From Eledone cirrhosa (Eukaryota), in contig OZ024747.1 in assembly GCA_964016885.1 (NCBI GenBank), positions 38,688,001 to 38,752,000 of the forward strand: a stretch of 64,000 bases of DNA. The letters run 5' to 3'. The stretch's first letter is position 1, and every line of letters begins with the position of its first letter. Positions 136-55,547 of this stretch are shown here, piece after piece. Made by a program: the position numbers and the translations under genes. The notes beneath the pieces are model-generated. The model was given only the letters and a program-made list of their open reading frames with translations. It had not been told where the DNA came from and made no database searches.

Positions 136-173
<38 letters not shown>

Positions 174-190
174 TTGGATTATTCAATGAT

Positions 191-5964: not shown

Positions 5965-5965
5965 A

Positions 5966-6011
<46 letters not shown>
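5965..6011 (+). repeat. (AAT)n tract, left edge of the retrotransposon array
   Basis: Direct. Further (AAT)n spacers lie at 9787-9837, 15718-15747, 17734-17785, 20511-20540, 20726-20743, 24525-24552 (degenerate) and 30347-30366. Confidence 0.95.
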
Positions 6012-9000
6012 GAAAATAAGAATGAAGAGAGAAGCAAGCGGACGGACAGAGAAGAGGGGGGAAAAAGTAAAACTTAAAAAACAAAAACTAAGTCAGACAT
6101 TCGAATACTACATTACAATGAAACTTATGCTTATTCATTTTTGGGGCCCTTTCTGCCCGTGTGTTTGTTTGTTTATGTGTGTTCGTATACAGCGTGGTGA
6201 TAATGCCACACAAGGGCCAAGTGGGATGGCGGATCCACAGATGGCTATGTAAACATACATTCGCCAATCCTCGATAAGAGTGTTTAAACATCGAACATAA
6301 ACAGTTCGAATAACGGTGAAATGGAGACTAGAACGTCATGTGACAGACTCTCACCCAACAGGTGCCCCCTGGCTCAGCAGCAGGAACCTGACTGTCAACC
6401 AAATACTGCTCATGTTGGAGGAAGAAGAAGAAGGAAAGGGGCCAGAACCAACTGGACGAAAGAATTGAATAGAACTGTTATGCAATGCTACCTGAAAAGT
6501 AACCCCAAGGAGAGGGGCTACAGGAGACGGATGCATAACATCTGGAACGAGATTGGTTTATTTAAATTAGATGAACAAAAATTGGCCGGGCAGGCTCGGG
6601 TAATAAGAACTAATGGGTAGATAAGCGAGCTGGAACTGGAGGAACTGAGCAGAGAGAATGGCTTGGAGATGGCGGGTGTAGTATGCCAGACAAGCGAGCC
6701 GGCGGGAAATGAAGGTGAGGAGGTCCTGAGAACGGAGGAACCACCCGAAGCAGACAATGATCTGAATACTGAGATAAATAATACCTGGAACAGAGATACG
6801 GCCACTGAGGAGATGAATGCTGACGGGCTAGGACAAGATTCGGTTGACATCCTAAATTTAGTGGTAGATGAGTTGAACAATGATAGTGGGAGACCTATGA
6901 ACCTAAGATTTGTAGACAGGAAAAAGTTAAAAGAAACAACAGCTAAGGTAAACAAAGTCATCCCATACCTTGAGGCGAGGAGTCTTCACCAGTGCAACAA
7001 TAGCCTCAAAGCAACAGCAAATACGGTGAGGAAACTACTAGGTATAAAAGCGAGAGGAAACAACAGACAAGAAAGAGCAGAGCCGTGGTGGAAGAAGCGA
7101 CTGAGTGGGCAAATCGGGGAAATGAGAAATGACATAGGAAAGCTTGAGTCACTACTGAATGGGACACTAAAAAACATAGGCACTAAAAATAGACTGGAAA
7201 TAAAATACAAAACTAGGAGTAAAATGCTAAATATTATCATAGAGGAATTGAAGCAACGCATTGTAGCAAAGAGTGCCAAAATTAGGCGATACGAGAACAG
7301 AGTCAGTCAGTATAAACAGAACCGCATGTTCGACAACAACCAGAAGATGCTGTTTGGACAGCTTGAGGGGAAAGAAAGAGGCAACGACTTGATCCCTGGG
7401 GCGGAACAAGCTAAAACATTCTGGAGAGGAATATGGGAGCAGGATGTTAGACACAATGCCCAGGCAGGGTGGATTGAGACAGTACAGAGGGAGATCGGTG
7501 AGCAGGCACAACAACAGACTGATTTGAGTATCACAGTTGAAACTCTTAAGGGGCAAGCCAAAAAACTAACCAACTGGAAATCACCAGGCCCAGATGGTGT
7601 GCAGGGGTATTGGATTAAACATTTAACATCCCTCCACCCGAAGCTGACGGCCATGTTCAATGACTGCTTGGTGTCGGGTGAGGTGCCAGAGTGGTTGACA
7701 AAAGGTACCACAGTTCTGATAATGAAAGACCGAATCAAGGGTAATGATGTTACCAACTATAGACCTATCACATGTCTGCCAGTAATGTGGAAACTGTTGA
7801 CGAGCATTGTGTCTGAGGAAATCTACCATCACCTCCACACAAACAACTTGTTACCGGACGAACAGAAAGGATGCCGAAAGAAGTCACGTGGTACAAAGGA
7901 CCAGTTGCTTATTGATAAGATGGTAATGGGGAATTGCAGGAGGAGACACACTGATCTTGCCATGGGATGGATAGACTACAGAAAGGCATTTGACATGGTG
8001 CCTCATTCCTGGATCACCAAAAGCCTGGAGATCTTCAGGGTGGCAGATAACATCAGACAGTTGCTGGACAGGAGTATGGGGTCCTGGGAGACAGAGTTGA
8101 CATCAACTGGAGTATCCTTGGGAAGCGTGAAGATCAAGAGAGGTATCTTCCAGGGAGATAGCCTGTCCCCTCTGTTGTTTGTCCTTGCCCTGATGCCCTT
8201 GACCATTATGCTGCGAAAAGTGAGAGCAGGATACAAGTTGGGAAGGGGAGAGCTTACCATCAATCACCTCCTCTTCATGGACGATCTTAAGCTCTTCGGG
8301 AAAAGTGAGAAGGAGTTGGATGTGCTTGTTGACACTGTCCGTATTTTCAGCAGTGATATATGTATGCAGTTTGGTATTGGTAAATGTGGAGTCATTGTGA
8401 TGAAGAGGGGTAGGTTGAGCAGAAGTAACGGGATCCAGATACCAACAGGTGAGATGATAAAGGAAATTGACTCTGAGGAAGGTTACAAGTATTTGGGCGT
8501 TCTGGAGGCTGATGGCATAAAGAACAAAAAATGAAGGAATTGTTAAGAACTGAATACATTCGGAGAGTAAGGAGCGTATTGAAGTCACATCTGAACAGCA
8601 GAAATGCCATAAGCGCAGTAAATTCCCGAGCTGTGTCTATTATTAGGTACAGTGCGGGAATTCTGAGATGGAATGTTGCTGAACAAAAAGAAATGGATAG
8701 GAAGACTAGGAAGATATTGACTATCTACAACATGTTCCACAAGAGGAGTGATGTCGATAGACTCTACCTAAGGAGATCTGAGGGTGGAAGAGGTCTTATC
8801 AGCATAGAGGACTGTGTTCAGATGGAGAAAAACAACCTATACAAATACGTGACCTATAGTAAGGAGCCAATGCTCAGAGCTGCACTGAAGGAGGGGACAG
8901 TAGGCCAGGGGATATCCAAGGAGGAAATAACATCAAGGAGGAAGAGCAGCCTTAAGGGAAAATCCCTTCATAGTACCTTCTTTGAGAAAACTGAATTTAG

Positions 9001-9786
9001 AGATCCACAGACATGGAACTGGTTGAGAAGAGGAGACCTCAAAAAGGCTACAGAAGGAATGCTAATGGCTGCGCAGGAGCAGGCCCTCAAAACGAAGTGG
9101 TTGAAGCACCATATCTACAAGGAGGAGGCTAGCCCACTGTGCAGGATCTGTGGAGAGAGAGAGGAGACTGTGGCTCACATTGTGTCCGAGTGTAAACACC
9201 TAGCCCAGACCCACTATAAGGGCTGGAGACACGATGTGATGGGCAGGGTGATCCACTGGCACCTGTGCAAAGTAAACAATCTACCACATTCTGAGAAATG
9301 GTATGAGCATAGGCCAGAGGCGGTGATGGAGAACAGTCAGGTGAAGGTGCTGTGGGGTTTTAGGATACAGACGGACAAAAAACTGGAACACAATAGACCT
9401 GACCTGGTGGTTGTGGACAAAGAAAAAAGATCGTGCCTGATTGTGGATGTGGCCTGCCCGTTCGACACGAGAGTGCAAGAGAAGGAGAGGGAGAAAATTA
9501 ACCGATACCAGGACCTAAAGTGGGAGGTGAAAAGGATTTGGAACTGCCATGAAGTCAAAGTGATCCCGATTGTCATAGGCGCACTGGGGACTATCTCCAA
9601 AGGTTTCCAGGGATGGTTAAAGAAAATCGGCCCCTTCACGCTTTTTGGAACGCTTCAAAAAGCATGCTTGCTTGGAACAGCAAGAACCCTCCGATACGTC
9701 CTGAATATCTGAGGCTGCAGGTAGTTGCTTGATATTCAATCCAACGGACTTTCCAGTTAACCAACATCAATGACTGAGATTCAAGG
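6012..9786 (+). mobile_element. R4/Dong-type non-LTR retrotransposon (RT + CCHC + restriction-like endonuclease), probably full length, copy 1
   Basis: Single ORF 6321-9712 with an internal TAG (6618-6620) and a frameshift in an A-run (about 8526-8531). Motifs WKSPGPDG, NYRPITCL, DYRKAFD, QGDSLSP, FMDDLK, CRIC..ETVAHIVSEC, RHD, RPDLVV, DVACP and EK..RYQDL. Flanked by (AAT)n, the known Dong target. Confidence 0.92.
6321..9712 (+). pseudogene. Dong-like RT-RLE polyprotein (one stop, one frameshift)
   Basis: Joins ORF track pieces 6321-6620, 6663-8534 and 8531-9712. Copy 2 is in frame across the 8530 site. Confidence 0.9.
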
Positions 9787-10086
9787 AATAACAATAACAA
9801 TAATAATGATAATAATAATAATAATAATAATAATAATGTTTTCTTTATTAACCACAAGGGTTTACATAAAGTAGACATTAAGGACAGTACAGGACAATAC
9901 AGGACGGTACAAATGGGCATTTCTGCGTGTAAAAAAATCAGAGGATGTAATAAAATAACAAAGAAAGATTCCCCAATAGGGGGGGGGGGAGACTTCAGAG
10001 GGACATTTGTGGAGAAAGCCCATTAAAATCCCACAGTGACCCTCACCACCAGAGCAAATGCCCTCTCCCAGTTTTCCACCTTTAAT

Positions 10087-13000
10087 TTACAGACACATAC
10101 TCAGAGTATTCATTCGGGCCATACTTGCTTCTCTCACCCATCTTTCAACAAAATGCTGGGAAGAGAGCACTTCCCTCTCTACCCTGATTTTCCTTTTCAA
10201 ATGAAATTTGAAAAAGTTAATCAGGGCATCACCGAAGAGGTAAGTGCTCGTCTTCAGCCCTTTCAAACGTGTCCACCATACTATCTCTTTCGCCATGGCC
10301 ACCAGACAGATAAAAGCTGCCTGCCCTTCCCGGCTAAAGGAAGAGGGCGGGGCAATCCTCACGATGGACTCAGCTGATAGCTGGATCCGTCCTACACGTG
10401 ACAGCAGGTGCTCGACATAAACCCACAAGTCAACAATGCTCGGACACTGGACGAGTGCGTGCAGGACGGTTTCGTCGCCCTGCGCGCATCTCGGTCATGC
10501 CCGACTGACGGCACCTCCATGCCTGTAGAGTTTATCCCGAACTGGCAAAGCTCCCCGGTAGCACTGTCAGGCAAGGGATTTCTGGAAGTTGTCCATAGGC
10601 CCCGGCTCGAAAGTCCTTCCGAAGACATTGGCTAGTTAATTTTCGTCGACGCCTAGAGTTTCTCCAAGTACGTCGTCGCTCTTCCCCTCCACTAATCCTC
10701 TATAGAACACCGATCACATTGCCTGATTAGTCGAGGGCTGTGAGCGCCTGAACACATTTCAGTCTCCAAGCGCTCCCTCTCGGGGTCGCTTGACCCAAGG
10801 AGACGAGCTCCGTCAAGGAGACGAGCTGGGGAAAGACCTGTCTAGCAAACGGCGACCACACCTGATCACCGTCGAGGAAAAGGTGGAGATGTCGTAGCCT
10901 GAGCGCGTGTCTGCGTATCATCAGCCACGGCATATCCAGCCCTCCACGTAGAGGGTGTTGACAGCAAATGGACCGCCTGACCATCGGAGCGCGTCCCTTC
11001 CACAAAAAGCGAAAGAGCAACCGCTCCAGCGCAGTCAGGCGGGGCTTAGGACAAGGTACGATGGTCAGGCGGTAGTAGATGACGGACGCGATGTACGCGT
11101 TAGCCACCTCCGCTCGACCTTTCAGGGAGAGCTTCCTCTCGGCCCATTTGTGGGTGAGAGAACCACCCTGCTAGTCACCTCGTCCCAGTTTTTGTCCGTC
11201 TGGAGGTCCGGACCGAACCGGACCCCTAGCAATTTAACCGGTCCGTCCGTCCAGCGCCCGACGACGCTGTTGGACGGCATGGACCTGCCTCTCCAGGTGC
11301 CGAGCTGCAGGCCCACTGACTTTTCCTGCTTGATCATTGCTCCTGTCACTGCTTCGTATTTTCTTAGTGTAGTGCCGATAGCCTCGATGTGTTTGGCGTT
11401 CGACACCACTACGGTGACATCGTCCGCATATGCTGACACGGATCTTCCGCATCGTAGTTCGCGCGGGACCCCCCTCACCGTCTCCAGTTTGTGTAGTAAT
11501 GGCTCGAGAGTCAATACGTACAAGAGGGACGAGAGGGGACATCCTTGGCGGACCGAGCGCATAATGTTGAACGGTTCCGAAAGGTGACCGTTCACTCTCA
11601 CCACAGAGCAGATGTCGCTGTGCATGGCAGCGATCCAGCCTCTGAAGATGGGCCCAAAGAAGCCGCCCTCAGGACTGCCGCTAGGTAACGATGGTCGACC
11701 CTATCGAAGGCTTTCGACTGATCTAAATTGATCAAAGACCCACCCGTGCCAGGTTCCCTAGCTACACTCTCTACGATGTATCGCATGAGGTGGAGGTTGT
11801 CGTGGATGGATCTGTCGGGAATGGCGCATGTCTGAGTTTCTGCAACCAGACCACCAACGACAAGCGCCAACCTCTTTGCTAGCACCTTGGTCAAAATCTT
11901 GAACTCTGTGTTTAGCAGAGTTATGGGCCTAAAATTATCTATGTTATCCCCCCCGTTCGTTCCTTTCTCAGCAGCGTCACGGCTTCTCGGCTCACAGAGC
12001 TTGGAATTCTCCCGTTCTGTTGCCAGTTGCAGTAGACGTCCGCCAAGAGGCATCCGAACAAGTATGGCATCTGCACGTAAAGTTCATAGGGCAGACCATC
12101 CAAACAAGGCGATTTACCCCTTGTGCAGCCAGTCATTGCCTCCCATATTTCAGCTGCTGTTATCGGCTTTTCGCAACACTCCGCCTCAGTGGCCGAGAGC
12201 CGCGGCAGTGGGTCTAGGTAGACACTAAAGTCCATCCTTCGATCCGGCCCGCCGCTGCCCCCGAACAGTTGAACGAAGTGTTGCTGAAAAGCTTCACACA
12301 TTTGCCCGGGATCGAGTAGCATGCGCCCGTCGTGGTCCACCAAAGACCGGATCGTGGCTTTGTTGCCACGACGCGCCTCCGCCACTCGGGCCCATTGAAC
12401 GGCTTTCGTGCCCTCGTGTCTGAGAGCACGCACCCTAGCTCTGACAACGCAGCCTTCGTGCTTTGCATTGAAGAATTGGTCAAGGGCCAATTTCGCCGCA
12501 AGTACGTCGGTCGCAATGCCTTTGCCAAGCGCCTCGTCTAATTTTCTAACTAATTCTCCCTCTGCTCTATTTTTCTCTATTGCTAAAGCCTTACTAAACC
12601 TAATGGACTCTATTCTAATTGCTCTTTTCAGAGCAAACCACCACTTGTTGTTGACGATGGCCCCCGTCAACGCCCGCTTAACTAGTTCACTAATCCGGTC
12701 TCTGTAGGCCTTGCGCTCTGGTAAGGACGCGTTTAGCTTCCAGTAGCCGAGTCCTCGTCTATGAAGCCTATCTAAGTCAAGCACACAGCTCACGAATTTG
12801 TGGTCCGTGTAGCTGACTATCTTGAATTGTGGACAGCCTATGCTAGACCTATCTATTTCCCTACAAAATACTCTATCTAGATATGATCTGGATGACCATA
12901 TGCGATTTGTCCAAGTCCACATTGGCACATTCTTGAAATCCAATCGGTACCTGTCAGACAGTTCAAAACGCCTGATCAGGTTGGTGAGGCTCTTGCACAC

Positions 13001-13480
13001 TCCTCCTCTATCCACTAATCCCACACAATCCCAGCATGCATCTAAGATCCCGTTCCAGTCGCCCACTAACACTAAAGAGCGGGACGTTCCAAGAAAGGTC
13101 TCCAGACGCCGGAAGAAATCAGGCCGCCCTGCTTCTGTCGGGGCATAGACGGCCACTAACCTGAAAGCTTGCCCGTCACCGCTGGTCACGTCCAGCACCA
13201 CCAACTTACCTTCTGGGTCCAGGAAAATGGCCCGTATGGCAAGATCCAAACCTCTCTGAAAAAGCACAGCAACTCCTCCTCCCGATCCCGGACGACTGGG
13301 AGATGCGTACACATCGTAGCCGCCGAAGATTGGTGCGAAGGACCGTGCTTCGGCGATTCTGGTCTCGGTGATGGCCACTACATCTATGTTTAGTGACATG
13401 AGGTCGTTGATCAGGTGGACCTGCTTCCATGACGACCCCAAGCCACGCGCATTTATGCTGCCTATTCTGAGTGAGGTCAT
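10087..13480 (-). pseudogene. Tx1-like ORF2 (APE endonuclease + RT), frameshifted
   Basis: ORF pieces 11939-13480, 11598-12053, 11122-11625, 10727-11107 and 10087-10428. Confidence 0.9.
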
Positions 13481-13518
13481 GTTGAAAAGGAGTGGAAAAG
13501 ATGGGAAAGACCACTTAC

Positions 13519-15504
13519 CTTACTTCTCGTAGAGAAAGGACGGTTTTTCCATCCTTTTTATTGCTTGTGGCCTACTCAGGAAGGGTGTCCTTATAAATCC
13601 TCCTGGAGAGTGCTTGTCGGAAGTCTCCGATGTCTTTGGAGAATTTTTGTTTTAGTGTCATGTACGTTTTCTGTGTGATGCGAGTGATTTGTATGTGTGG
13701 AGGTGGTGTGAATGTTTGGGTTGTTTGTAGTCTTTTTCTGTGATGCTGGTGTTGTGTTGGATGTAGTGTAATAATTGTTTATTGTTCAAATTTAACGCTG
13801 TGTAGTGTGTATCGTTTTGGTTGTTTTGTTTTGTTTGCGTTTGTTGTGGGTTTGTTTCTGTTTCGCATTTTGGTGACTTTTGTGGTGTAGGTGATGATGG
13901 TGTTGGGGTTAATGATGGTGATGACGTTGGTGTTTGGGATGATGGGGTTGGTGATGCTGGTGTGGATGGTGGCATATCTGTCCTAACTTTTTTGTTTGTT
14001 AATTTATTTGTTTCCCTCTGTATTTTGTATTTTGATGGGGAAGGAAGAGTATTTTTTCTTTTTTGGTTTCTTTTTTCTTTTTTTCTGATACCGTTTCCCA
14101 CTCCTCGTCGTCACAATCTGTCTCTAGTTGTGATAGGCCGGGGAGTGGAACATCCTCCACAGGCGTTAGTTTTGGTTGTGGCGTGGTGGATGGTGTAGGC
14201 GCTGGTGCTAGTTCTGAAGCGTTGGGCGGTGGTGGTGTTGGTTTTGCTGGTAGTGGTGGTGTTGGTTTTGCTACTGTTGCTGGGGTTGTTGCTGTTATAG
14301 TTGCTTCTGTTGTTGCTGCTACAGTTGTTACTGTCATCTCTGCTGCTGGTGGTGTTGATGGTTGAGTCACTGGGGTGGGTAGGAGAGGTGGCCTCAACCT
14401 TTTAGCCTGAGGGCAGAAAGCCCTTAGGTGGGTTCCTTCACCACAAACGACACACCTAGGCCTTCTGCCCTCGACAATTACGATGAGGTGGCTGCCGTCA
14501 CTGAGCTATTACCTCTGGGAACTCCTCAATGCTTTTTTGGTCCGCTTGGATCAGGAGCTCCATCCCAGATCCGGACCAGTTCTGTTTTTATTTTGCTATT
14601 GCTATTGTCTTGGTGTTGGCTTCGATGCCGGCGAAGACGGCTACTATTAGCCAGGGAATTTCGATGGCCGGTGAAATGTGGGTCACCCTGATCTTTACGA
14701 GTCTCTTGCCGCAATAGCTTGGGACGAGTGTGAAGTCGTCACTTCTTAATGGGGACATGGAGTGTTCTCTAGCCTCCTCTGGTGTTTCAAAGAACACGTC
14801 CACGGTTCCATATTTTTGCCCACGTCTGATGAGGGGTTTTTTGCCCACACATGTCCCAAAGCATTTTGGATTTGGGACTCGGATGCCCATTCCACTCGGC
14901 GCGATTTTATATTAATTGCTCGATAAGACACGGTGCATAGGCGTCGATGGTCCATTGTATTAAGTGTGTGTGTGGGGGGTGGGGGTGGAGGGGGAGGGGG
15001 GCTGACCCTGTACCCATCTTTGTTTACCATTGTTTTGGCTTCTTCTAATTCCTCCTGAGTTACCTGAAATGCTTCGCACTGTTTTGATACTCTGGCAAAA
15101 CTGAAGGTGTTTTTTTTTAATGTCATTGTTGCTGTTGGTGTTAACGTTATTTTTGTTATTTTTAATTTTAGTTTCAGTTTTGGTGGTGGTGGCGTCAGTG
15201 GTGTTCGGTGTGGAAGATTTCATTTTGGTTGAATTCATATCGATATCACGAGTTGATTTATTTTTTCTTTTGTTTCTGTTGTCGCGGTGGTGGTCGGGGT
15301 GGTGGTTGCCGCGGTGTTGGTGGTGGTGGCGGCTTTAACACCTGCAGTCATTGGTAATGGCGGGAAATGAATGTCTGCCTGAGACAAATTTAAAATATTG
15401 CTGCTGCTTATATTTTTAGTGTTGGCAAACGTAGTAATATTTACAATGGTGGTGTCGGTGAGAGGTGTTAGTTTGTGAGAGAGGATTGACTCTGAGTCAG
15501 CCAT
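13519..15504 (-). pseudogene. Tx1-like ORF1 (gag-like, zinc knuckle, T/P/N-rich low complexity), frameshifted
   Basis: ORF pieces 15235-15504, 14960-15238, 14746-15126, 14588-14890 and 13999-14397; CX2CX4HX4C motif. The end is approximate. Confidence 0.75.
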
Positions 15505-15717
15505 GATTCTTCAAAGAAAAATTTTTGTTTGATAATTATAAAAGTTTAGATTTTGGGCTAAAGGCCCCAATCTTTTGGGTGTCCTTTTCAGATAACAATG
15601 TATGTGCACTTATATACAGTTAACAATAAAAAATGTCCATGGATGGCAGTTTTAAACAACTGAAAATAACAAACCTTTGCGGAGCTCACGATGATACGAT
15701 TTACTACGTAGGTCGCC

Positions 15718-15747
<30 letters not shown>

Positions 15748-15748
<1 letters not shown>

Positions 15749-17733
15749 CTTTCTTTATTAACCACAAGGGTTTACATAACATATACATTAAGGACAGTAC
15801 AGTACGATACAGGACGATGCAAATGGGCATTTCTGCGTGTAAAAAATAAGAAACAGAGAATGTAATATTAGAACAATGAAAACAATTCCCCAATAGGGGG
15901 GAGACTTCCGAGGGACATTCGTGGAGAAAGCCCATTAAAAAGCCACAGTGACCCTGACCACTAGGGCAAGTCCCCTCTCCCAGTTTTCCACCTTTAATTT
16001 ACAGACACATACTCAGAGTAGGCCCATTCACTGGGGCCATTCTTGTTTCTCTCACCCATCTTTCAACAAAATGCTGGGAAGAGAGCACTTCCCTCTCTAC
16101 CCTGATTTTCCTTTTTAAATGAAATTTGAAAAAGTTAATCAGGGCATCACCGAAGAGGTAAGTGCTCGTCTTCAGCCCTTTCAAACGTGTCCACCATACT
16201 ATCTCTTTCGCCATGACCAGCAGACAGATAAAAACTGCCTGCCCTTCCCGGCTAAAGGAAGAGGGCGGGGCAATCCTCACGATGGACACAGCTGATAGCT
16301 GTATCCGTCCTACACGCGACAGCAGGTGTTCGACAGAAACCCACAAGTCAGCAATGCTCGGACACTGGACGAGTGCGTTCAGGACGGTTTCATCGCCCTG
16401 CGCGCATCTTGGACATGCCCGGCTCACGGCATGCCTGTAGAGTTTATCCCGAACTCGCAAAGCTCCTCGGTAGCACTGCCAGGCCAGGAATTTCTGGAAG
16501 TTGTCCATAGGCCCCAGCCCAAAAGTTCTTCCGAAGAGATTGGCTAGTTGATTTTCCTCGACGCCTAGAGTTTCCCCAAGTACATCGTCGCTCTTCCCTC
16601 CACTAATCCTCTATAGAACGCCGAGGTGGAGTTTCCACCGATCACATTGCCCGATTGGTCGAGGGCTGTGAGCGTCTGCAGACATTCCAATCTCCAAGCC
16701 CTCCTTCTCGGTCATCGCTTGACCCAGGACTGCAGCTCTGTCAAGGAGACGAGCTGGGGAAAGACGCGTCTAATAAACGGAGACCACACCTGATCACCGT
16801 CGAGGAAGAGGTGGAGATGTCGTAGCCTAAGCGCGTGTCTGCGCATCATCAGCCACGGCATTCCCAGCCGTCCTTGTAGCAGGTGTTGACAGCAGTTGGG
16901 CCGCCTGACCATCGGGGCGCATCCCTTCCACAAAAAGCGAAAGAGCAAACGCTTAGGACAAGGTACGTGCTCCATTTTATTAGGTGTGTATGTGTGTGTG
17001 TGTGGGGGGGGGGGGTAAGGCTGACCCTGTACCCATCTCTCTTTACCATTCTCTTGGCTTCATCTAATTCCTTCTGAGTTACATGGATTGCTTCGCACTT
17101 TTTTGCTACTCTGGCAAAAGACAGGGTGGTTTTCTTAATGTAATTGTTGCTGTTGTTGTTATCGTTATTTTTGTTATTATTAATTTTAGTTTCAGTTGTG
17201 GTGGTGGTGGCGTCAGTGGTGTTCGGTTTGGAAGAATTCATTTTAGTTGAATTCATTTCGATATCACGAGTTAATTTATTTGTTCTTTTGTTTCTGTTAT
17301 CGCGGTGGTGTCGGGGGTTGTGGTTGTCGCGGTGGTAGTGGTTGTGGCGGCTTTAACACCTGCAGTCATTGGTAATGGCGGAAAATGAATGTCTGCCTGA
17401 GACAAATTTAAAATATTGCTACTGCTTTTATTTTTAGTGTTGGCAAACGTAGTAATATTTACAATGGTGGTGTCGGTGTGAGGTGTTAGTTTGTGAGAAA
17501 GGAGTGACTCTGAGTCAGCCATGGTTTTTCAAAAAAAAAATGTTGTTTGATAATTATAAAAGTTTAAATTTTTGGCACAAGGCCCCAATCTTTTTGGGTG
17601 TCCTTTTCAGATAACAGTGTATGTGCACTTATATACAGTTAATAAAAACTTTCCATGAATGGCAATTTTAAACAACTGAAAATAACAAACCTTTGCGGAG
17701 CTCACGATGATACCATTTACTACGTAGGTCGCC
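15748..17733 (-). mobile_element. Tx1 family A, internally deleted derivative (5'UTR + ORF1 N-terminus joined to ORF2 C-terminus + 3'UTR)
   Basis: 15748-16967 aligns to 9838-11060 and 16970-17733 aligns to 14950-15717; both termini are intact; flanked by (AAT)n. Confidence 0.92.
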
Positions 17734-17785
<52 letters not shown>

Positions 17786-17787
<2 letters not shown>

Positions 17788-20510: not shown

Positions 20511-20540
20511 AATAACAACAATAATAATAATAATAATAAT

Positions 20541-20725
20541 TGTTTCTAATTTAGGCACAAGGCCAGCAAATACCCAGTGCATTACTGGTACTTTATTTTA
20601 TCGACCCCGTAAGGATGAAAGGCAAAGTCAACCTCGGCGGGATTTGAACTCAGATCGTAAAGGGACGTAACTATGCTGGAAAGCATTGCGTCCGACCCTC
20701 TACCGATACTGCCAATCCACCACCC
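20541..20725 (-). mobile_element. tRNA-derived SINE, about 185 bp, inside (AAT)n
   Basis: Element strand: A-box-like tggcagtatcgg, B-box gagttcaaatcc, central ttgcctttcatccttacggggtcgataaaataaagtaccag, tail ggccttgtgcctaaattagaaaca(att)n. Nine copies in the window. Confidence 0.9.
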
Positions 20726-20743
20726 AATAATAATAATAATAAT

Positions 20744-23700
20744 GATTTCTTTATTGGCCACAAGTGCTGACATCAATTAAAAAATTACAGACGGCAGAGG
20801 ACGGTACAGGACGGTACGATGAGGGTTTTTGCGTGTAAATATGTTTTTTATTTATATAAGAAAAGAAAAAAAAGGACATAGAAACATATATATATAAACA
20901 ATAAAAATGAAAATTGAACAATGAAAAATTCCCCAATAGTGGGGACACCTCCGAGGGTTACTCGCAAGCGCCCTCTCTCAATTTTTCCATCTCTCAAACT
21001 ACAGACCTTTATTCACTCGGACCATTCTCGCTACATTCACCCACCTTTCAACAAACTTGCTAGAAGGCAGCACTTGCCTCTCCACCCTGATTTTCCTCTT
21101 CAAGTGAAACTTGAAAAAGTTAACTAGGGATTCACCGAAGTGGAAAGTGTTTGTCTTTAACCCTTTTAACCTTGTCCACCACACAATCACTTTGGCCATG
21201 GCCACCAGGAAGATGAAAACCGCCTGCCCTTCCTCCTCGAAGGAAGACGGCGAGACCATCTGCACAATGGACTCAGTCGACAACCGGATCAGTCCTATAC
21301 GCGACAGCAACTGTTCGACATAGCTCTACAAGTCAGCAATGCTCGGGCACTGAACGAGTGCGTGCACGACGGTTTGGACGCTCCACGCGCATCTCGGACA
21401 GGCTCGGCTGACGGCACTTCCGTGCCTGTAGAGCTTATCTCGAACCGGCAGCGCACCCCGGTAGCACTGCCAGGCCAGAGATTTTGGGAAGTTATCCATA
21501 GGCCCTGGGTTGAAAGTTCTCCGGAAGAGAGCAAACAGCTGATCTTCTTCAACGCTCAGGATCTCTCTGAGAATGTCGTCGCTCTTCCCCTCCACTAGTC
21601 CTCTATAGAACGCCGAGGTGGATGTTCCACCGATACTGTTACCCAGCTGGCAGATGGCAGTGAGCGCCTGGAGACATTCCAGTTTCCAAGCGCTATCCCT
21701 TGGTCTTTTTCTGACCCAGGACTGCAGCTCCGTCAAGGACACGAGCTGTGGGAAAACGTGCCTGGCCAACGGTGACCACACCCGTTCACCATCAAGGAAG
21801 CATCAGAGATGTCGCAGCCTCAGCGCATATTTGCGCATCATCAGCCATGGCATGCCCAGTCCTCCACGCAACGGGTGTTGACAGCAGATGGATCGTCTGA
21901 CCATGGGAGCGCGTCTCTTCCACAAAAAGCGCAAGAGGAGGCGCTCCATTTTGGTGAGAGTTGAGCTGGAGCAAGGGACGACGGTGAGGCGGTAGCAGAT
22001 GACGGATGCAATGTACGCATTCGCCACCCCCGCCCGGCCTTTCAGGGACAGCATCCTCTCGGCACATTTCTGGGTGAGAGAGGCCACCCTGCTCGTCACC
22101 TCGTTCCAGTTTTTCTCCATCTGGAGGTCCGTTCCGAACCAGACCCCGAACAATTTAACCGGTCTGTCCATACAAAGCCCCACGACACTGTCGGACGGCA
22201 TGGACTTGCCTCTCAGGTGCTGAGCTGCAAGCCCACCGACTTTTCTTGGTTTATCTTTGGTCCTGTCACCGCTTCGTATTCCTTGAGAGCGGTGCCGAGC
22301 ATCTGGACGTGTCTGGTGCTCGACACCACCACGGTGACGTCGTCAGCGTAAGCCGACTCGGATTTCTCGCATCCTAGTTCGCGTGGGACGCTCGTCATTG
22401 CCCCCATTTTGTGCAGTAACGGCTCGAGAGCCAATACGTACAAGAGGGACGAGAGGGGACAACCCTGGCGGACTGAGCGCATGATGCAGAACAGCTGCGA
22501 CAGGTGACCGTTCACCCTCACAACTGAGCAGATGTCGCGGTACATTTCTGCGATCCAACCTCTGAAAACGGGCCCGAAACCAGCTTCCTCGAGGACCGCC
22601 GCCAGGTACCGATGGTCGACCCTATGGAATGCTTTGGATTGATTCAAGTTGATCAGGGCCCCACCCGTGCCAGGTTCCTTAAACACCCTCTCTATGATGT
22701 ATCGCATGAGGTGGAGGATGTGGTGTATGGATCTGTCCGGAATGGTGCATGTCTGTGCATCTCCCACCAGACGCTTGACGACAAGCGCCAACCTCGTTGC
22801 TATCACCTTGACCAAAATCTTGAACTCTGCGTTTAGCAGGGTTATGGGCCTGAAATTATCGACAACATCCCCCTTGTTTGGGTCTTTTCTCAGCAGCTCC
22901 CCGGCTCACAAAACTGGGAATGCACCCATTCTGCTGCCAGTTGCAGTAGACGTCTGCCAAGAGGTCACCGAGCAAGTCTTGCATAAATTCATAAAGCTCT
23001 TAGGGCAGACCATCTAAACCTGGCGATTTACCTCTTGTGCAGTTAGCGATCGCTTCCCCTATTTCACCGGCTGTTACTGGACTTTCGCAACACTGTGGTG
23101 CGGTCGTCGAGAGCCGAGGCAGTCCGTAGAGGTATGCACTGAAGTCCATGCCCCGATCCGGGCCGCCGCCGGTCCCGAACAGTTCAGCAAGGTGCTGCTG
23201 AAAAGCTTCACACATCCGCTCGGGTTCGAACATCACGCACCCGTTTTGGTCAGTTTGTATAAGCATTTGCATGCCTATACCTGACCAGTTCTCTCCCCCT
23301 ATTTTTTCTACTTGCAGCATGGTCGTCCTGTTCTCGATTCCAGCAAGACAGACGCGGCCAGCCAAGGTATGGGCACGTCGGGTGGGATTTGGGTCACTTT
23401 GAACCTCACAATTTTCTGCCCGCAGTAGGAGGGCACCAAGACTATCTCATTACCCTTTAGGGTTTCCAAAGGGTGAGATTTTGCTTCCTGGGGGGTGAAG
23501 AAAAGTACGTCTACTGTGGCGTACTTTCTGCCTCGGGTGATGTGGGTTTTTCGTGCCCAGACGCACCTCAAGGTCTTTTGGATTGGAGCCTCCGTGGCTC
23601 TCTCCACCCGATGTGAGATTTTGCTTACGGTGCGGTAAGTCACCGTCCGTAGCTGCTGGTCCTTGAAAGAATCGGGTGAAGGTTTCAGGGAGACTCTATT

Positions 23701-24524
23701 GGCGCTTCTTTTCACCAGGGCCCTTGCGACTGCCATCTCCTCCACTGTAACTAACACTGTCTCGATATTTCGGGCGACACCTGCAAAAGAAATGGTCCCT
23801 TTTTCAGTCTTACTTTTGGTGCTGAGATCGCTGTTACAGGTATCGATGTCATTGTTAATGTTTTTGTTGGTACAGTTGTTGGTGTTGTTGTTGTTGTTTT
23901 CGTTGATACTGTTGCTGTTGTTACTGTTATTGTGGCTGTTGTTATTATTGTTGTTTTTGTTGATACTGTTCCTACTATTATTGTTGTTGTGGCTGTTGTT
24001 ATTGTCATTGTCGTTCACGACCTTACCGCTGTTATTTTTGTTATCGTCGTTCTCGATTTTACCGCTGTTATTTTTGTTATTGTTGTTGTTATTGATGGTG
24101 TTGTTGTTGGTGTTGTTGTTGGTGTTATTGTTGGTGTTGTTTGTGTTAGAAATATTTGTTAATTTTAAATCTGTAACAATCTTCTTTTCCTTTGTAATAT
24201 TTTCGTTTATATTTACCTCCGGCGAAACGCTGTCTTGTTGACATGCTGATAAAGTCTCCCTCTCTCTGTGTTGTCTGACAGCGCTCTCTCTGTTTCTTGT
24301 GTTATCCTTGTTGAAATTTTTTTCAAAAAAATACTTTTACACAAATACGAATACGAAACCCCGTAAAGGGTTGCCGTATTATTTACGAGGGAACCCTTGT
24401 ATTAGGTGGGGTACTTCTTCTAAACTTTTATCAAAACTAAAACTTGAATAAAAGGTTTAGAACGGTTGAAAACGAGGTAAAACGTTGAAAAAAAACTGGA
24501 GGCGATAAGAAGTGTGGCTTCACC
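20744..24524 (-). mobile_element. Tx1 family B, internally deleted (lacks the zinc knuckle and APE), disrupted
   Basis: ORF1 N-terminal half (about 24244 to 23253; Asn-rich, SFAGVA, GRKYATVDV, LVPSYCG) joined to ORF2 from the linker onward (MCEAFQQH, GKSPGLDGLP, QGCPLS, AYADD, CPRC). 3' AATAAA + (ATT)n. Confidence 0.88.
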
Positions 24525-24552
24525 AACAATAATTATTTACAATAATAATAAT

Positions 24553-27500
24553 TTTCATTTATTGGCCACAAGGGGACAATACAAAAGACTGGGAGAGTGG
24601 GGCTTTACAGAAAAATCGAGTAAACAATATGAATAACAATAACAAAGTAACAACAACAGAGTAACAATAAAGAAACAAGAAAATTACAACAAGAAAAAAT
24701 TCCCCAATAGGGGGGGGGGGGATAACCACCTAGGATTCGCTCAGGTACCCCACCAGTCTTGAACGACCCGACGCTTCGAGAGCACTCTGGAAGCGCACCC
24801 CTCTCCTCGTCAAATTTACCTACCTACAGGCACATGAGCAGAGTAGGCCCACTCACACGGGCCATTCTCGCCATATTCACCCACCTTTCAGCAAATGTAC
24901 TGGGGGGCAGCACTTATCTCTCCACCCTCACCTCCCTTTCCAAGTGAAACTTGAAAAAGTTGATGAGGGATTGACCGAAGAGAAAAGTGTCTGTCTTCAG
25001 TCCTTCAACCTCGTCCACCATACAACCACTTTCGCTATTGCCACCAGGCAGAGGAAAATTGCCTGCCCTACCTGGCCAAAAGAAGGCGGCGGGTCGATCT
25101 TCACTATGGACTCGTCCGATAGCCGGATCCGTTCTACACGCGACAACATCTGTTCAACATAACTCCACAAGTTAGTTATGCACGGACACTGGACGAGTGC
25201 GTGCAGAACGGTTTCGTCACTCTGCGCGCATCTCGGGCAGGTCCATCTGACAGCACTTCCGTGCCTGTAGAGTTTATCTCGAACCGGCAGTGTCCCCCGG
25301 TAGCACTGCCAAGCGAAGGATTTTTGGAAATTATCCATCGTCCCCGGCTCGAAAGTCCTCCGGTACATACTGGTTAGTTAGACTTAGTTGACTCCCAGAG
25401 CCTCTCGGAGTGCGTCGTCGCACCTTCTCACCACTAATCCTCTATAGAACTCGAGAGTGGAAGTTCCACTGACCGCATTTCCCGCCTGGTAGAGGGCAGT
25501 GAGTGCATGGCAACATTCCAGATGCCAGTCACCCAGTCTCGGTCTCTTCTTGACTCAGGACTGCAACTCAGTCAAAGAAATGAGCTGAGGAACGCCCGTC
25601 TGTCAAACGGCGACCACACCTGTTTACCGTTTAGGAGATGCCGCAGCCTCAGCTCGTGCCTGCGCATCATAAGCCATGGCATGCCCAGCCCTCTACGTAG
25701 AGGGTGCTGGCAGCAGATGGACCGCCTCACCAGCGGAACCTGACCCCTCCACAAGAATTTGAAGAGGAGCCGCTCCAAGATGGCGATGCGCGAACAGGGG
25801 CAAGGGACGACAGTCAGACGGTAGTAGATGACGGACGCGATGTACGCGTTCGCCACCTCCACCCGACCTTTCAGTGATAGCTTCATCCCAGCCCATTTCT
25901 GGGTGAGACTGACTACCCTTCCCGTCACCTCGTCCCAATTTTTATCCACCTGGAAGTATGGCACGAACCAAACGCCTAGCAACTTTACCACTCCGTCTGT
26001 CCAGCGCCTAACGCCGCTGTTGGACGGCATGGACTTGCCTCTCCAGGTGCCGAGTTGCAAGCCCACTGACTTTTCCGGGTTAAGTTTTGCTCCCCTCAAC
26101 CTTTCAAATCCCTCCAATAAGTTGCAGACCACCTCGATTTCTGAGGTGTCCAGCACCAACACGGCGATGTCGTCCGCATAAGCCGACACAGCCTTTCCGC
26201 GGCCCGGTTCGAGCGGGATGCCCTGCAACAGCTCCAGCTTCCGCAGTAAAGGCTCGAGAGTCAATACGTATAGAAGGGAGGAGGGAGAGAGGGCACCCCT
26301 GACGGACCGATGGGGAGATCTGAAACGGTTCCGAGAGGTGGCCATTACATTTGACCATCGAGCAGGTGCCGCTGTGCATTGCAGCGATGCAGCTTCTAAA
26401 GACGGGGTCGAAGCCAGCCGCCTTGAGGACAGCCTCCAGGTACCGATGGTCGACCCTATCGAATGCTTTCGATTGATCTAACTTGATCATAGCCCCACCG
26501 AAGCCAGGTTTACACCCTACCCTCTCTATGATGTATCGCATTAGGTGGAGGTTGTCGTGTATAGACCTGGTTGGGATTGCGCAAGTTTGCGCCTCCCCAA
26601 CCAAATTCCCGACGACAAGCGCCAACCTCTTCGTTAACACCCTGGCCAACATCTTAAACTCTGTGTTGAGCAGTGTTATATGCCTGAAATTGTCTAATGT
26701 GTACCTCTTGTTCTCGTCTTTCCTTATCAGCGTCACTACGCCTAGGCTCACAGAACTGGGAATACTCCCGTTTTGCTGTCAGTTGAAGTAGAGGGCTTCG
26801 AGGAGATTGGAGAACAAGTCTGGCATATTTACGTAAAGCTCGTAAGGCAGACCATCCAAACCGGGTGACTTGCGCCACATGCAACCGACAAAAGCATCCT
26901 GAATCTCGGCTGAAGTAATTGGCCTTTCGCAGCGCACAGCGTTAGCCGTCGAGAGTTGCGGCAAGCCATCGAGGTAGGGACTGAAGTCCGCAGCCATCTC
27001 CTACCCGCCTCTTCCCCCGAACAACCGAGCAAATTGTTGGCGAAAGGCCTCACACATCCCCTTGGAATCGCTCAGCTGGTGCCCGTCTCGGTCCGTCAAA
27101 GACCTAATCGTGGTTTTATTTCCACCCTGCGCCTCTGCCACGCGGGCCCATCGAACAGCTTTGGTTCCCTCGTTTCTCAGAGCACGCGCCTTAGCTCTGT
27201 CAATGCAACCTTCGTGTTTCGCATTGAAGAAATGGTCTAATGCCATTCTCGCCGCTAGCACATCAGTTGCAATGCCACTACCAATAGCCTCGTCTAACTT
27301 ATCTACCAACTCCCCCTCCTTTCTATTTTTCTCTAATGCTACTTCTTTGCTAAACTCTATCGACATTACTCTAATCTCTCTTTTGAGAGCCTCCCACCAT
27401 CTATTGTTGACGACTCCCCCTGTCAACTTTTTCTTAACTAAATTGTTGACCTGTTCCCTGTAAGCCTTACGTGCCGGAAATGACATGTTTAGCTTCCAGT

Positions 27501-30346
27501 AACCAGGTCCTAACCTACGCGTCTTATCTAGGTCGACCATACAGATCACAAACTTGTGATCTGAATAGGCGACCGTTTCAAAACGTGGACAGCTTACACT
27601 ATTTCTGTCTATTTTCATAATGAATATCCTGTCTATATACGATCTAGATAACCCTATGCGGTTAGCCCAGGTCCACACTGGCGCATTATGGAAATCTAGT
27701 CGGTACCTGTCAGACAGTAGGAACTAGCTGATCAGGGTCTTGAGGCTTTTGCACCCCCCGCTCCTATCGGATACTCCCACACAGTCCTAACGTGCGTCTA
27801 AAGAAGTCCGGCCGCCCTGCCCCGGTAGGAGCATAGACGGCCACCAGTCTAAAGGCACCACCTTCATTATTGTTCACGTCCAGGACCACCAACTTCCCGT
27901 CCGGGTCCCGGAAGATCGACCTTACTTCGAGATCCAGGCCTTTCCTAAACAGCACTGCCACCCCGCCTCCCATTCCCGGCCGGCTAACAGATGCAAAGAT
28001 CTAATAGTCGTCGAAAATGAGGTCTAGTGCGTGCGTGTCGGAAATTCTGGTCTCGCTGACAGCAATTACATCCATTTCTGTTGACTTAAGGTCGTTGAGC
28101 AGGTGACCCTGCTTCCAGGACGATCCCAGGGCTCAAACATTTTAACATCCTACTCTTAATACAGCCATGTTGGCAGGTTAAACAGAGAGAGAGGAAAGTT
28201 TACTTATCTTCCGAGCTCTTGTGAAGGTCGGGTTGTTCGACCTCCATATTTAGTGAGATTTCTTTTGGGAACCCCTTTAAAAGTCTTGAAGTAGGTTCTA
28301 CGTTCGGGTTTCCCACGTCCCGAGGAAAGCTGTCTAGTATTTCTTTGAATATGTCGAGCGACATTCGCACCAGAACCAAATTATCCGGCACGCGAAATGT
28401 GCCCGATTTAAAAATTTCCCCCTCCTTTTGTATATTTTCACTTTGTGCTACGAGGGCCATCAGTTCCTTGTTGGCCCTCCTGACGAGCACGAAGTTTTGT
28501 ATGTTTTGTTGGTGTGATTTTAGTTGTTTGCGTGGCTGTGGTGGTGATGGTTTAGGTGGTGTTGCTTCGGTTGTATCTGTGTTTGTTGTGAGTGCGGTGT
28601 CTGTGGATTCAGATGTTTGTGTTTATATTTGTTCTTGCGTCTGTTTCGGTTGTTTGCGTTTGGGGGATTCTGGTGATGGTGATGCTGGTGTTGGTGTTAT
28701 TGGAGAGATGTTTGCGTGGGTGGTGTCTGCGTTTTTTATTGTGGGTGCTTTTGCGCTTTGTTGAATTTTTTTTTTCTTTTTGTGTTTCCTTTTTTGGATT
28801 TTTGTGGATTTTGGATTTCCCTCATTTTCACTACTGGTAGATGAGGGGTCTGTGTCTGTAAGTGTATCTGCATGTATGTTTATGGTTTTATTTGGGGGGA
28901 GGGGGAATTTGACCGCTTTCCTCGTTTCCCCCCTGGGTGGTCAAAGTTGGTGGTGGTCTTTCTATTGGTGTTGTTGTTGGTGATTTGCCGGTGCTGGCGT
29001 TGGTTGTGGTCCTCGCCCCGGCGTCGGCAGCAGTGGAGCCTTTCGACCCCTTGCCTCTTTCAGCAGTTGAAGGCAGAAGGCTCCCGAATGGGTTTTTTCC
29101 CCACAAATAAAACACTGCGGCCTTTTGCCTTCGGTCATAATGTGAATGACCGTCCCATTCTGAAGGCGGATGTGGTCCGGGATTGTCTTTACATTCTCGG
29201 GCCTGATCTGGAGGAGTATCTCCAGGTCAACCCCGGACCAGTCCTCTCTGGACGTTCTGGTCACTTCTATAGGGACTGTATCCGTCCCCTCCACAATCAC
29301 ACATCCCAGAAGCCAACACACGTCAGGTCTTGGTGGGATTCTGGGAATGAGGCACGGGCCGTTCTTTTTCCCATGTGGGAGGGGTACATTATGCCCTTGC
29401 TGGTTTTGCAAGGAGTCATAGCGTGTTTCATAGCGAGAGCTTCTGACTTGGACAACACCGAAATGGTGCCGTACTGTCTGCCCTTCTCTATACTGGGTGT
29501 CTTCTCTGATGCACCTCACCTCTTCTTGTGGGATTAAAGCTGCCCTTTTGGTTTGTGCTGAGATGCATCTATAATGCACTGTTTTGCGCTCCACTGCCTC
29601 AATAGCCTCTACCGGGACAGTTAAGTTGGCCTAACTTTGCTCTTGCTTGATGAGCTTCCATGTCTGGGCCAACTTTTTATCTTTGTTTGAGAGATCCTTG
29701 TTGAAGCATGGCCTCTTTTATGCTGCTGCCGCAGCGAAAGTGTTCTTGTTTTCGTTGGGGGTTTTGTTGTCGTTGTTCTTGTTGGTGTTGTTGTTAGCAC
29801 TGTCGCTGTTATCATTGTTGTCTTTGTTGCCACCGTTGTTCTCGGTGCAGTTGGTATTATTGCTGTTGGTGTTGTCGCTATTTTTTTCATGTTAGTGGTG
29901 TTGATATTGTTGTTGTGTTTGTTATTTTTTTTTTTTCGTTATCTGTATTTTCGTTGTGGCTGTTACTGTAATTTTTCTCAAAATTAGAGTTCTTATTGGT
30001 ATCATTGGTGTCTTTGTTTACATTGTTTATGGTTGTGTTTGTGTTATCAATGTGTGTTAATTTCGCTGTAGCGCTCCTCTCAACTTCTACGTCGTTGTCG
30101 CACGGCGGCAGACATATCGCTGGGGGAGTGGCTCAACCACGTTTTATTTTTCTTCGTAAATTTTTTAACATGTAAAAAAAAGTTCAAATATTTGGACCAA
30201 AAGGCCCAAATATTATACTTTCCCCTTCACGGGGCAAAGTCTAAGGGCTTATATCCCTTACACAACAAGAAATATTTAACAACAAATAATTTCAACAGGC
30301 AAATATAGCGACTTACTGGGAGCGAGCAAAATACGTCCTCTTAGAC
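24553..30346 (-). mobile_element. Tx1 family C, full length, disrupted
   Basis: ORF1 from about 30115 to 28200 with CFICGEKTHSGAFC (29073-29114). ORF2 from 28168 to 24824 with APE (VYAP, SYIDR, SDH), RT (DQSKAFD, AYADD) and CPRC; many stops and frameshifts. Confidence 0.9.
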
Positions 30347-30602
30347 AAATAATAATAATAATAATGATGATGAAGCAGCAATATCAGTTTCCTGAAAATA
30401 GTGAGTGATGGTGACGAGAAATGTTCAATTATATGCACAACCGCGACGATAAGATATCTCATGGTGCAAAAACATCTGCTTGCCAATGGATTGCTGTTCC
30501 TATGGAAACCAACGGAAAATTGTTGTATTTTTCCTGTGTTCTATCAAAAGCATTATCACATCTTTCACCATGAATGAACTTAGTTTCCCATGAAGAACCG
30601 AA

Positions 30603-55452: not shown

Positions 55453-55493
<41 letters not shown>

Positions 55494-55547
55494 TAAAAAA
55501 ATAATGAATAAAACAATGAAACAGTTCCATATATTAAACAAAAAAAG

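What the first reader, a model, noticed from the sequence alone, without database searches (positions are those of the whole stretch)
5965..30366. Seven retroelements of three classes stacked end to end in one (AAT)n microsatellite with fixed orientation
Seen: the order is Dong(+), Tx1-A(-), Tx1-A deleted(-), Dong(+), SINE(-), Tx1-B deleted(-), Tx1-C(-). Every junction is an (AAT)n spacer and no element interrupts another's body. All RLE elements point one way and all APE elements and the SINE point the other. Known: Dong targets (TAA)n. Inference: two unrelated endonucleases cut opposite strands of the same repeat, and each insertion regenerates the target, making a self-expanding landing site.
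Basis: partly seen in the sequence, partly recalled or inferred. Interest (0 to 1): 0.7.

Follow-up and report, generated by a model that had tools for sequence, protein, structure and literature searches.

The report
Jumping genes stacking in AAT repeats
Seven jumping-gene copies of two unrelated long kinds and one short kind sit end to end on short AAT repeats, each kind facing its own fixed way, and the same stacking recurs across this probably octopus-type genome, likely because the two kinds cut opposite strands of the repeat and each insertion leaves the target usable again.

Summary
In detail: seven elements, eight AAT spacers, stated order and polarity, no element inside another. It is one example of a genome-wide habit. 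Other copies of the three Tx1-like families have (ATT)n at their 5' ends (30/30, 29/30, 22/30 strict) and Dong-like copies have (AAT)n (24/28 strict); 340 of 345 element ends beside AAT runs follow the polarity rule; 5 of 5 other clusters fetched are the same kind of stack. Corrections: both Dong copies are 5'-truncated, and the SINE is not microsatellite-specific. It inserts at a 5-bp ATTAT core with a 14-22 bp duplication, mostly in unique DNA, and re-inserts at its own duplications. That core exists on only one strand of the repeat, which explains polarity, and the SINE shares its 3' end with the Tx1-like families. No empty allele was found, and the clade names Tx1 and Dong/R4 rest on architecture, not on named references. 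Closest precedent: TRAS/SART in silkworm telomeric repeats; Dong on TAA is known. An ATT-targeting L1-group family sharing Dong's target was not found in my literature searches. This scan has already noted the same thing at many other places in this genome. New variant of a known kind.

The parts
5957..6010 (+). Spacer 1: (AAT)15 with degenerate start; left edge, between unique flank and the truncated 5' end of RLE copy 1
   Evidence: left flank single-copy
6011..9786 (+). Dong/R4-like RLE LINE copy 1, 5'-truncated by 756 bp; RT, CCHC knuckle, PD-D endonuclease motifs; one frameshift near 8513-8534; youngest element (99.5% to best fetched copy)
9787..9837 (+). Spacer 2: AAT/AAC run, tail-to-tail junction
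9838..15717 (-). Tx1-like (L1-group) APE LINE family A, full length, ORFs broken; ORF1 with CCHC knuckle, ORF2 APE-RT-zf
15718..15747 (+). Spacer 3: (AAT)10, A 5' end to A' 3' end
15748..17733 (-). Family A copy A' with both ends intact and a private internal deletion of about 3.9 kb; 89-90% identical to A
17734..17786 (+). Spacer 4: (AAT)17, head-to-head junction (two 5' ends), not explicable as a 3' tail
17787..20510 (+). Dong/R4-like RLE LINE copy 2, 5'-truncated by about 1.8 kb; 98.2% identical to copy 1
20511..20540 (+). Spacer 5: AAC/AAT run, tail-to-tail
20541..20725 (-). 185-bp SINE with A-box and B-box-like motifs; 3' end resembles the Tx1-like 3' ends; inserts at ATTAT with 14-22 bp duplication elsewhere
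20726..20743 (+). Spacer 6: (AAT)6
20744..24523 (-). Tx1-like family B, both ends intact, private internal deletion of about 2.2 kb (endonuclease region)
24524..24552 (+). Spacer 7: degenerate AAT run, 4 perfect units
24553..30347 (-). Tx1-like family C, near full length, degraded; 73-74% identical to A and B over ORF2
30348..30371 (+). Spacer 8: (AAT)6(GAT)2; right edge, C 5' end to unique flank; bridged by one short-read contig

Best explanation
The array is a stack of seven retroelements of different ages joined by AAT spacers, likely built by independent target-primed insertions into one AAT tract, with the Tx1-like enzyme predicted to nick the AAT-reading strand and the Dong-like enzyme the ATT-reading strand. 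Shown: Tx1-like elements and the SINE always read ATT at both ends, Dong-like elements read AAT; the SINE inserts at top-strand Y|ATTAT with a 14-22 bp duplication; the SINE 3' end resembles the Tx1-like 3' ends. Inferred: the Tx1-like machinery moves the SINE and uses the same core (bottom-strand nick 5'-ATAAT^R-3'), which in the repeat occurs every 3 bp on one strand only, so polarity is forced; the RLE enzyme primes from the other strand; each insertion splits the tract, duplicates some of it and adds a tail, so both halves remain targets. The four Tx1-like copies arrived first (93-95% to best fetched relatives), then the SINE (97.8%) and the two Dong-like copies (98.8%, 99.5%). Internal deletions are private to each copy.
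For: 5' flanks of other copies: A 30/30, C 29/30, B 22/30 with >=4 perfect ATT, none AAT; Dong-like 24/28 with >=4 AAT, none ATT. Exact phase TATTATT at the 5' end in 30/30 A and 29/30 C. 340 of 345 element ends at 232 runs obey polarity. Of the first 100 (AAT)>=7 run starts on C1, 36 of 99 neighbour gaps are <=10 kb (4.5 expected) and 34 of those 36 are on one strand. 5 of 5 clusters fetched are polarised stacks. 24 different left-right pair types among 132 two-sided junctions. SINE heads after (ATT)3: 2,596 matches, after (AAT)3: 73. SINE duplications: 16 of 17 start ATTA, pyrimidine before it in 16 of 16, background 58%; 6 of 54 copies sit at the duplication of an earlier SINE. SINE versus Tx1-like 3' ends: shuffle p 0.004-0.012; versus Dong-like and CR1-like ends p 0.67-0.99. 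Spacers total about 96 triplets, mean 12, not shorter than unflanked runs (median 7, n=19). Precedent for endonuclease-set polarity: TRAS/SART domain swap (PMC7265360 passages).
Against: No empty allele and no long read across the array. No duplication can be measured for a LINE inside a repeat. With the six tail insertions included the pyrimidine rule drops to 18 of 22 (four have A). 19 of 54 SINE copies gave no clear duplication. Of 14 apparently 5'-truncated Tx1-like copies only 7 have (ATT)3 at the 5' edge; 7 do not by the strict rule. One of 30 B copies (L105) has no repeat flank. The flank samples are the best-scoring 30 of 506-1,557 candidates, so biased to intact, similar copies. The SINE-LINE 3' match is only 14-15 of 19-20 bases and no shared stem-loop was supported.
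Confidence: 0.8

Rival explanations
1. Same independent insertions, but polarity and much of the specificity come from base pairing rather than from the endonucleases: each transcript carries repeat units from its donor site at the 3' end (and perhaps the 5' end), so only a nick on the complementary strand can prime, even if the enzymes are lax.
For: Fixed 5' phase is not expected from a variable-length duplication alone; a GTT variant before the B 5' end is shared by 26 of 30 copies and AAC variants follow many Dong-like 3' ends; four SINEs inserted after A in another SINE's tail, where pairing is longer.
Against: In unique DNA the base before ATTAT is a pyrimidine in 16 of 16 although the SINE's own base there is A; sister families with a near-identical 3' terminus use (ATCT)n and differ in the endonuclease; TRAS/SART specificity moves with the endonuclease (PMC7265360 passages).
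Confidence: 0.3
2. The spacers are only 3' tails, and elements pile up passively because AT-rich tails attract insertions or because insertions there escape selection.
For: All these families have AAT or ATT tails, and a CR1-like family also supplies ATT tails that were later used; the SINE really is only loosely tied to the repeat.
Against: Head-to-head and outer 5' junctions carry the repeat; 11-13 of 30 loci per family for B, C and Dong-like have the repeat with no recognised neighbour; exact phase and 340/345 polarity; very young Dong-like copies are already in the repeat.
Confidence: 0.07
3. The array arose by tandem duplication, unequal exchange or co-transduction of blocks, or is an assembly artefact.
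For: It contains two pairs of related copies, and no read spans the whole array.
Against: The pairs differ by 1.8% and 10-11%, with different truncations; deletion junctions occur only here (1 of 47 and 1 of 31 loci with hits); neighbours vary freely; flanks are single-copy; one contig bridges the right junction without differences, probably from the assembled sample itself.
Confidence: 0.04

Closest known systems
TRAS and SART in Bombyx mori (TTAGG)n telomeric repeats (PMC7265360, passages read)
   Same: Two non-LTR families share one simple repeat and insert in opposite orientation by using opposite strands.
   Different: Both are APE-type (R1 clade, recalled) and telomeric; here one is RLE and one APE, the repeat is interstitial, a SINE joins in, and stacks occur all along chromosomes.
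Dong (R4 clade) of B. mori, Anopheles gambiae, Biomphalaria glabrata (PMC3812793 and PMC3774820, passages read)
   Same: RLE architecture, TAA repeat on the sense strand at both ends; Dong-R4 is abundant and recently active in Octopus vulgaris (PMC13282606, parts 1-2 of 3 read).
   Different: Sharing of the target with an APE family and mixed stacks were not in the passages read; identity with named Dong proteins was not tested.
Kibi (TC)n, Koshi (TTC)n and crocodilian (TTCC)n/(TTTC)n Tx1 families (PMC4494074, passages read)
   Same: L1-group APE elements aimed at microsatellites.
   Different: Target here is (ATT)n, with a sister branch on (ATCT)n; relationship to Kibi/Koshi not tested.
SINEU and Tx1-Mar of crocodilians (PMC4494074, passages read)
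   Same: A SINE assigned to a Tx1 partner by shared target preference, weaker in the SINE.
   Different: Here the SINE has a tRNA-like head, also shares a 3' end with the LINE, and its target is a 5-bp core.
L1/Alu insertion into poly(A) tails of earlier copies (recalled; not read here beyond a search listing)
   Same: An insertion leaves a usable target behind.
   Different: One endonuclease, short elements, no second clade in opposite polarity.

Membership tests
L1 group (APE-type non-LTR) | ORF2 with N-terminal APE endonuclease, RT and C-terminal zinc knuckle, closest to L1 ORF2p | tested here: met
   Intact family-A ORF2 in L190 (1139 aa): Exo_endo_phos, RVT_1, zf-RVT; human L1 ORF2p E 2e-52 over residues 5-850 against R2 E 1e-20
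Tx1 clade | RT groups with named Tx1 elements (Tx1L, Kibi, Koshi, Keno) | tested here: inconclusive
   No named Tx1 protein among hits; tree places A, B, C in a 100/100 clade with an Argonauta hians protein, next to unnamed and fish/turtle proteins
Tx1 clade | Two ORFs, ORF1 with a CCHC knuckle (feature recalled) | tested here: met
   C-x2-C-x4-H-x4-C visible in the L190 ORF1 translation; Pfam gave no ORF1 family
Tx1 clade | Sequence-specific insertion | tested here: met
RLE-type non-LTR (R2 group) | Single ORF: RT, CCHC knuckle, PD-D restriction-like endonuclease at the C terminus, no APE | tested here: met
   RVT_1; C-x2-C-x8-H-x4-C, RHD, PD..D conserved in alignment; weak match to R2 endonuclease region, E 0.007
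R4 clade / Dong | RT groups with named R4/Dong rather than HERO, NeSL or R2 | tested here: inconclusive
   Homologs at 44-66% identity carry no clade names; no named Dong sequence was available
R4 clade / Dong | TAA repeats on the sense strand at both ends | tested here: met
   24 of 28 strict, other 4 AAT followed by AAG; 149 of 150 ends
R4 clade / Dong | HDV-like ribozyme at the 5' end (shown for B. mori Dong, PMC3774820) | tested here: inconclusive
   No Rfam match; my strict descriptor, written from recall, found nothing
tRNA-derived SINE | Short, non-coding, A and B boxes, target-site duplication, high copy number | tested here: met
   185 bp; box-like motifs at positions 4 and 77 (recalled motifs); duplications; 46,118 head matches including minisatellite copies; no Rfam tRNA match
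SINE mobilised by the Tx1-like LINEs | Shared 3' end and shared insertion signature; mobilisation in trans | tested here: inconclusive
   3' similarity p 0.004-0.012, same polarity; mobilisation itself cannot be tested here
TRAS/SART-type system | R1-clade elements in telomeric repeats | tested here: not met
   Elements are L1-group and RLE-type, target is interstitial (AAT)n at C7:38.7 Mb; it works like TRAS/SART but is not a member

The most novel reading that the evidence does not exclude
This genome runs an undescribed interstitial counterpart of the TRAS/SART system: an octopod-specific L1-group lineage with an ATTAT-cutting endonuclease and an unrelated RLE lineage share (AAT)n in opposite polarity, a very abundant SINE borrows the former, CR1-like and SINE tails seed new pads, and most long AAT runs in the genome are junctions of about a thousand self-extending stacks; sister lineages that switched to (ATCT)n give a natural series for mapping how an APE endonuclease changes target.
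Probability: 0.45. Interest if true: 0.68.

Novelty: new variant of a known kind. Interest (0 to 1): 0.5.

Why it matters
It gives a second, non-telomeric case of two retrotransposon lineages sharing one repeat in opposite polarity, this time across the RLE/APE divide. It would explain part of the uneven repeat landscape and the AAT microsatellite load of octopod genomes, and name a partner LINE for an abundant SINE. The SINE's duplications reveal the cut core (Y|ATTAT) that the repeat itself hides, and the ATT versus ATCT sister families make the old question of what sets LINE target choice (endonuclease or RNA tail) testable with close natural pairs. Each ingredient has a precedent, so the surprise is moderate.

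Tried and rejected
Empty allele by paralogy: both flanks single-copy. Empty allele by reads: contigs of three runs of one sample stop at 5954 and the RAD run laid 0 reads; at the right edge one contig bridges the filled junction and nothing shows an empty one; neither call is a test of polymorphism. A' and B as non-autonomous families: rejected, junctions private. SINE as strict microsatellite targeter: rejected. Shared 3' stem-loop: only family A folds better than shuffles (z -2.6; other three z -0.2 to -0.9). 5' ribozyme: nothing found, inconclusive. Clade naming through protein databases: no informative names. Metagenome scan returned 73 loci, best-segment identities 21-54% and mostly near 25-30%; their flanks were not analysed and they were left out of all counts. 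One search (plain repeat pattern) gave overlapping hits in only a few runs and was replaced. The original Dong paper was not held and the supplement of PMC4494074, which may list Tx1 targets, could not be read.
Full report
Observation. Eight spacers of 18-54 bp join them. Of 9 (AAT)>=4 runs in the 64 kb window, 8 are these junctions; the ninth is at 3743, and there is one (ATT)4 at 50611. No element interrupts another. Three spacers cannot be 3' tails: the two outer ones and the head-to-head junction at 17734-17786. Both RLE copies are 5'-truncated, by 756 bp and about 1.8 kb. A' and B keep both ends but have internal deletions of about 3.9 and 2.2 kb.

What the elements are. An intact family-A ORF2 from locus L190 (1139 aa) has APE, RT and zinc-knuckle domains and matches human L1 ORF2p at E 2e-52 over residues 5-850, R2 proteins at 1e-20 or weaker. 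Its best named relative is an Argonauta hians protein at 73% over the RT region, so the host is probably an octopod; I did not pursue its identity. A, B and C are 73-78% identical over ORF2. The label Tx1 is likely but untested against named members. The plus-strand element has RT followed by a CCHC knuckle and RHD and PD..D motifs with a weak match to the R2 endonuclease region (E 0.007); R4/Dong is likely from architecture and target, also untested against named members. The SINE is 185 bp with box-like motifs.

Target specificity. I searched G000 (3.0 Gb) with the 5' ends and read the best 30 loci of 506 (A), 1,472 (C), 607 (B) and 1,557 (RLE) candidates; each set includes the window's own copy. 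At least four perfect ATT units precede the 5' end in 30 of 30 A, 29 of 30 C and 22 of 30 B; by eye 7 of the other 8 B flanks are interrupted ATT runs and one (L105) is not a repeat. At least four AAT units precede 24 of 28 RLE copies that reach the 5' region; the other four have AAT followed by AAG. None has the opposite repeat. The seven bases before the 5' end are TATTATT in 30 of 30 A and 29 of 30 C. The upstream neighbour is another member in 24 of 30 A, 18 of 30 C, 19 of 30 B and 15 of 28 RLE loci.

Genome-wide stacking. The pattern for a run start of seven or more AAT units has 33,393 matches. Among the first 100 on C1, 36 of 99 neighbour gaps are at most 10 kb (4.5 expected, maximum 14 in 10,000 uniform draws) and 34 of those 36 pairs are on one strand, against 27 of 63 distant pairs. 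The five clusters I fetched, picked as the densest, are all polarised stacks; one holds about 11 elements in 25 kb. Of the first 30 runs in order, 12 have a library element on both sides, 7 on one side, 11 on neither. Nine clusters of three or more runs in 21.6 Mb extrapolate to roughly a thousand stacks; this is a rough figure from one chromosome end. A census of 232 distinct runs in all own-genome loci (an enriched, not random, sample; metagenome loci left out) found 345 abutting element ends: RLE 149 plus and 1 minus, Tx1-like 144 minus and 1 plus, SINE 47 minus and 3 plus. Two exceptions are the two sides of one short AAT stretch inside an ATT context; three are insertions at an ATTA core at the edge of an AAT run, two of them from loci chosen for that.

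The SINE shows the cut core. Its head pattern has 46,118 matches, inflated by 45-bp tandem arrays; a slightly shorter head pattern follows (ATT)3 in 2,596 matches and (AAT)3 in 73, with some double counting. So only a small share sits in the repeat, but with strong polarity. The 8 other SINE pieces in the window are outside AAT repeats and on both strands. Of 54 full-length copies, 10 have (ATT)4 upstream, 17 have a clear duplication, 19 none, 6 sit in another SINE's tail and 2 have tandem heads. With the start left free, 15 of 17 duplications begin exactly at the first base after the element; the upstream copy reads ATTAT in 15, ATTAA in 1 and ATTGT in 1; aligned lengths are 14-22 bp. The base before ATTA is C or T in 16 of 16 (58% in the same loci; p 1.7e-4). 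The six tail insertions also show duplications that begin at the earlier copy's ATTAT; four have A before it, so the full tally is 18 of 22. They are direct cases of a site re-used after insertion. The last 30 bases of the SINE match those of A, B and C better than shuffles (p 0.004-0.012) and do not match Dong-like or CR1-like ends (p 0.67-0.99).

Mechanism. By established target-primed reverse transcription the strand complementary to the RNA is nicked first. Elements that read ATT are therefore primed from the AAT strand and elements that read AAT from the ATT strand (inference from polarity). A top-strand Y|ATTAT core occurs every three bases on one strand of the repeat and never on the other, which would force Tx1-like and SINE polarity. 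A duplication of 14-22 bp plus tail would add about five to seven triplets per insertion. The window's spacers total about 96 triplets, mean 12; perfect runs with elements on both sides have median 9 units (n=132) against 7 for unflanked runs (n=19), so spacers do not shrink as stacks grow. Replication slippage could also lengthen them. Best identities to fetched relatives are 99.5% and 98.8% for the RLE copies, 97.8% for the SINE and 93-95% for the four Tx1-like copies, which points to accumulation over a long time. Whether the endonuclease or RNA-tail pairing fixes polarity is open; the fixed 5' phase and inherited repeat variants favour some role for pairing.

Against and untested. No empty allele and no spanning read; one contig bridges the right junction and probably comes from the assembled sample. 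Of 29 Tx1-like 3' segments with a 5' edge inside a locus, 15 continue in element sequence (internal deletions), 7 have (ATT)3 and 7 do not, so truncated copies may be less strict than full-length ones.

Sister families. The shared Tx1-like 3' motif has 21,129 matches. Among the first 30, six end in ATCT-, AT- or other tails instead of ATT. In 20 loci picked for that variant most have ATCT-like tails, four show ATCT-like 5' flanks by eye and one sits on another copy's tail. In an RT tree they group with family C (97/91) inside the octopod clade (100/100), and their endonuclease differs at visible positions.

Literature. Nine searches returned no description of an ATT-targeting Tx1 family or of mixed Dong/Tx1 stacks. 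Passages read: PMC4494074 (Kibi, Koshi, crocodilian Tx1, SINEU), PMC3812793 (Dong on TAA), PMC8967140, PMC3747384, PMC7265360 (TRAS/SART), PMC4640811, PMC9115989, PMC3774820 (Dong in R4 lineage, ribozyme), PMC4758252, PMC3124438; parts 1-2 of 3 of PMC13282606 (Dong-R4 and L1-Tx1 recently active in O. vulgaris, hotspots without a target explanation). Repbase reports and the 2004 Kojima and Fujiwara paper were not available, and the supplement of PMC4494074 was unreadable; I recall, unverified, that Repbase may list a mollusc Tx1 family with an ATT target, which would lower novelty. The scan's own notes report the same pattern at eight other places in this genome; I read them after reaching these results and they are not independent support.

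Verdict. Real, genome-wide, mechanistically explicable, with precedents for each part; the cross-clade sharing, the ATTAT core read from the SINE and the ATT/ATCT sister pair are the new elements. New variant of a known kind, interest 0.5.

Noticed in passing
L344-L363 (G000:C1, 1.8-24.3 Mb); L319, L325, L335: Sister Tx1-like families with a nearly identical 3' terminus carry (ATCT)n or (AT)n tails and, in four loci, ATCT-like 5' flanks; one stacks on another copy's tail. Their endonuclease differs from the ATT families near residues 60-66.
   Followed up: partly
L153, L174, L180, L040, L060: An element that looks CR1-like by recalled C-terminal features ends in (ATT)n; in two loci family C has inserted into that tail, so it may seed new landing sites. 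Clade not tested.
   Followed up: partly
L185, L186, L190, L191, L194, L199: A second RLE family, about 40% identical in the C-terminal part of the protein, uses the same AAT polarity and is common in the stacks.
   Followed up: partly
L067, L068, L078, L081; also L009, L028, L093, L120: (AAG)n runs between (AAT)n and the RLE 5' end, which itself starts with GAAGAAG; possibly slippage at the end of reverse transcription.
   Followed up: no
own-genome loci: Internal deletions of different sizes in 15 of 29 Tx1-like copies examined, each private, while both ends are kept.
   Followed up: partly
G000:C1:1767390-1768446 and similar (L219-L232): The first 45 bp of the SINE form tandem minisatellite arrays of many units.
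   Followed up: no
window 55485-63485: A large inverted repeat, about 88-89% identical between arms over 2.3-2.7 kb alignments, rich in AT microsatellites, centred near 59.9 kb.
   Followed up: no
window 173-2309 (+): Three open frames of 157-270 aa; one has a sub-threshold RT match (E 0.05), probably a decayed retroelement.
   Followed up: partly
G000:C1:46019492 (+) and 46024880 (-): Two family-A 5' ends 5.4 kb apart facing each other; a possible inversion or polarity exception, not examined.
   Followed up: no
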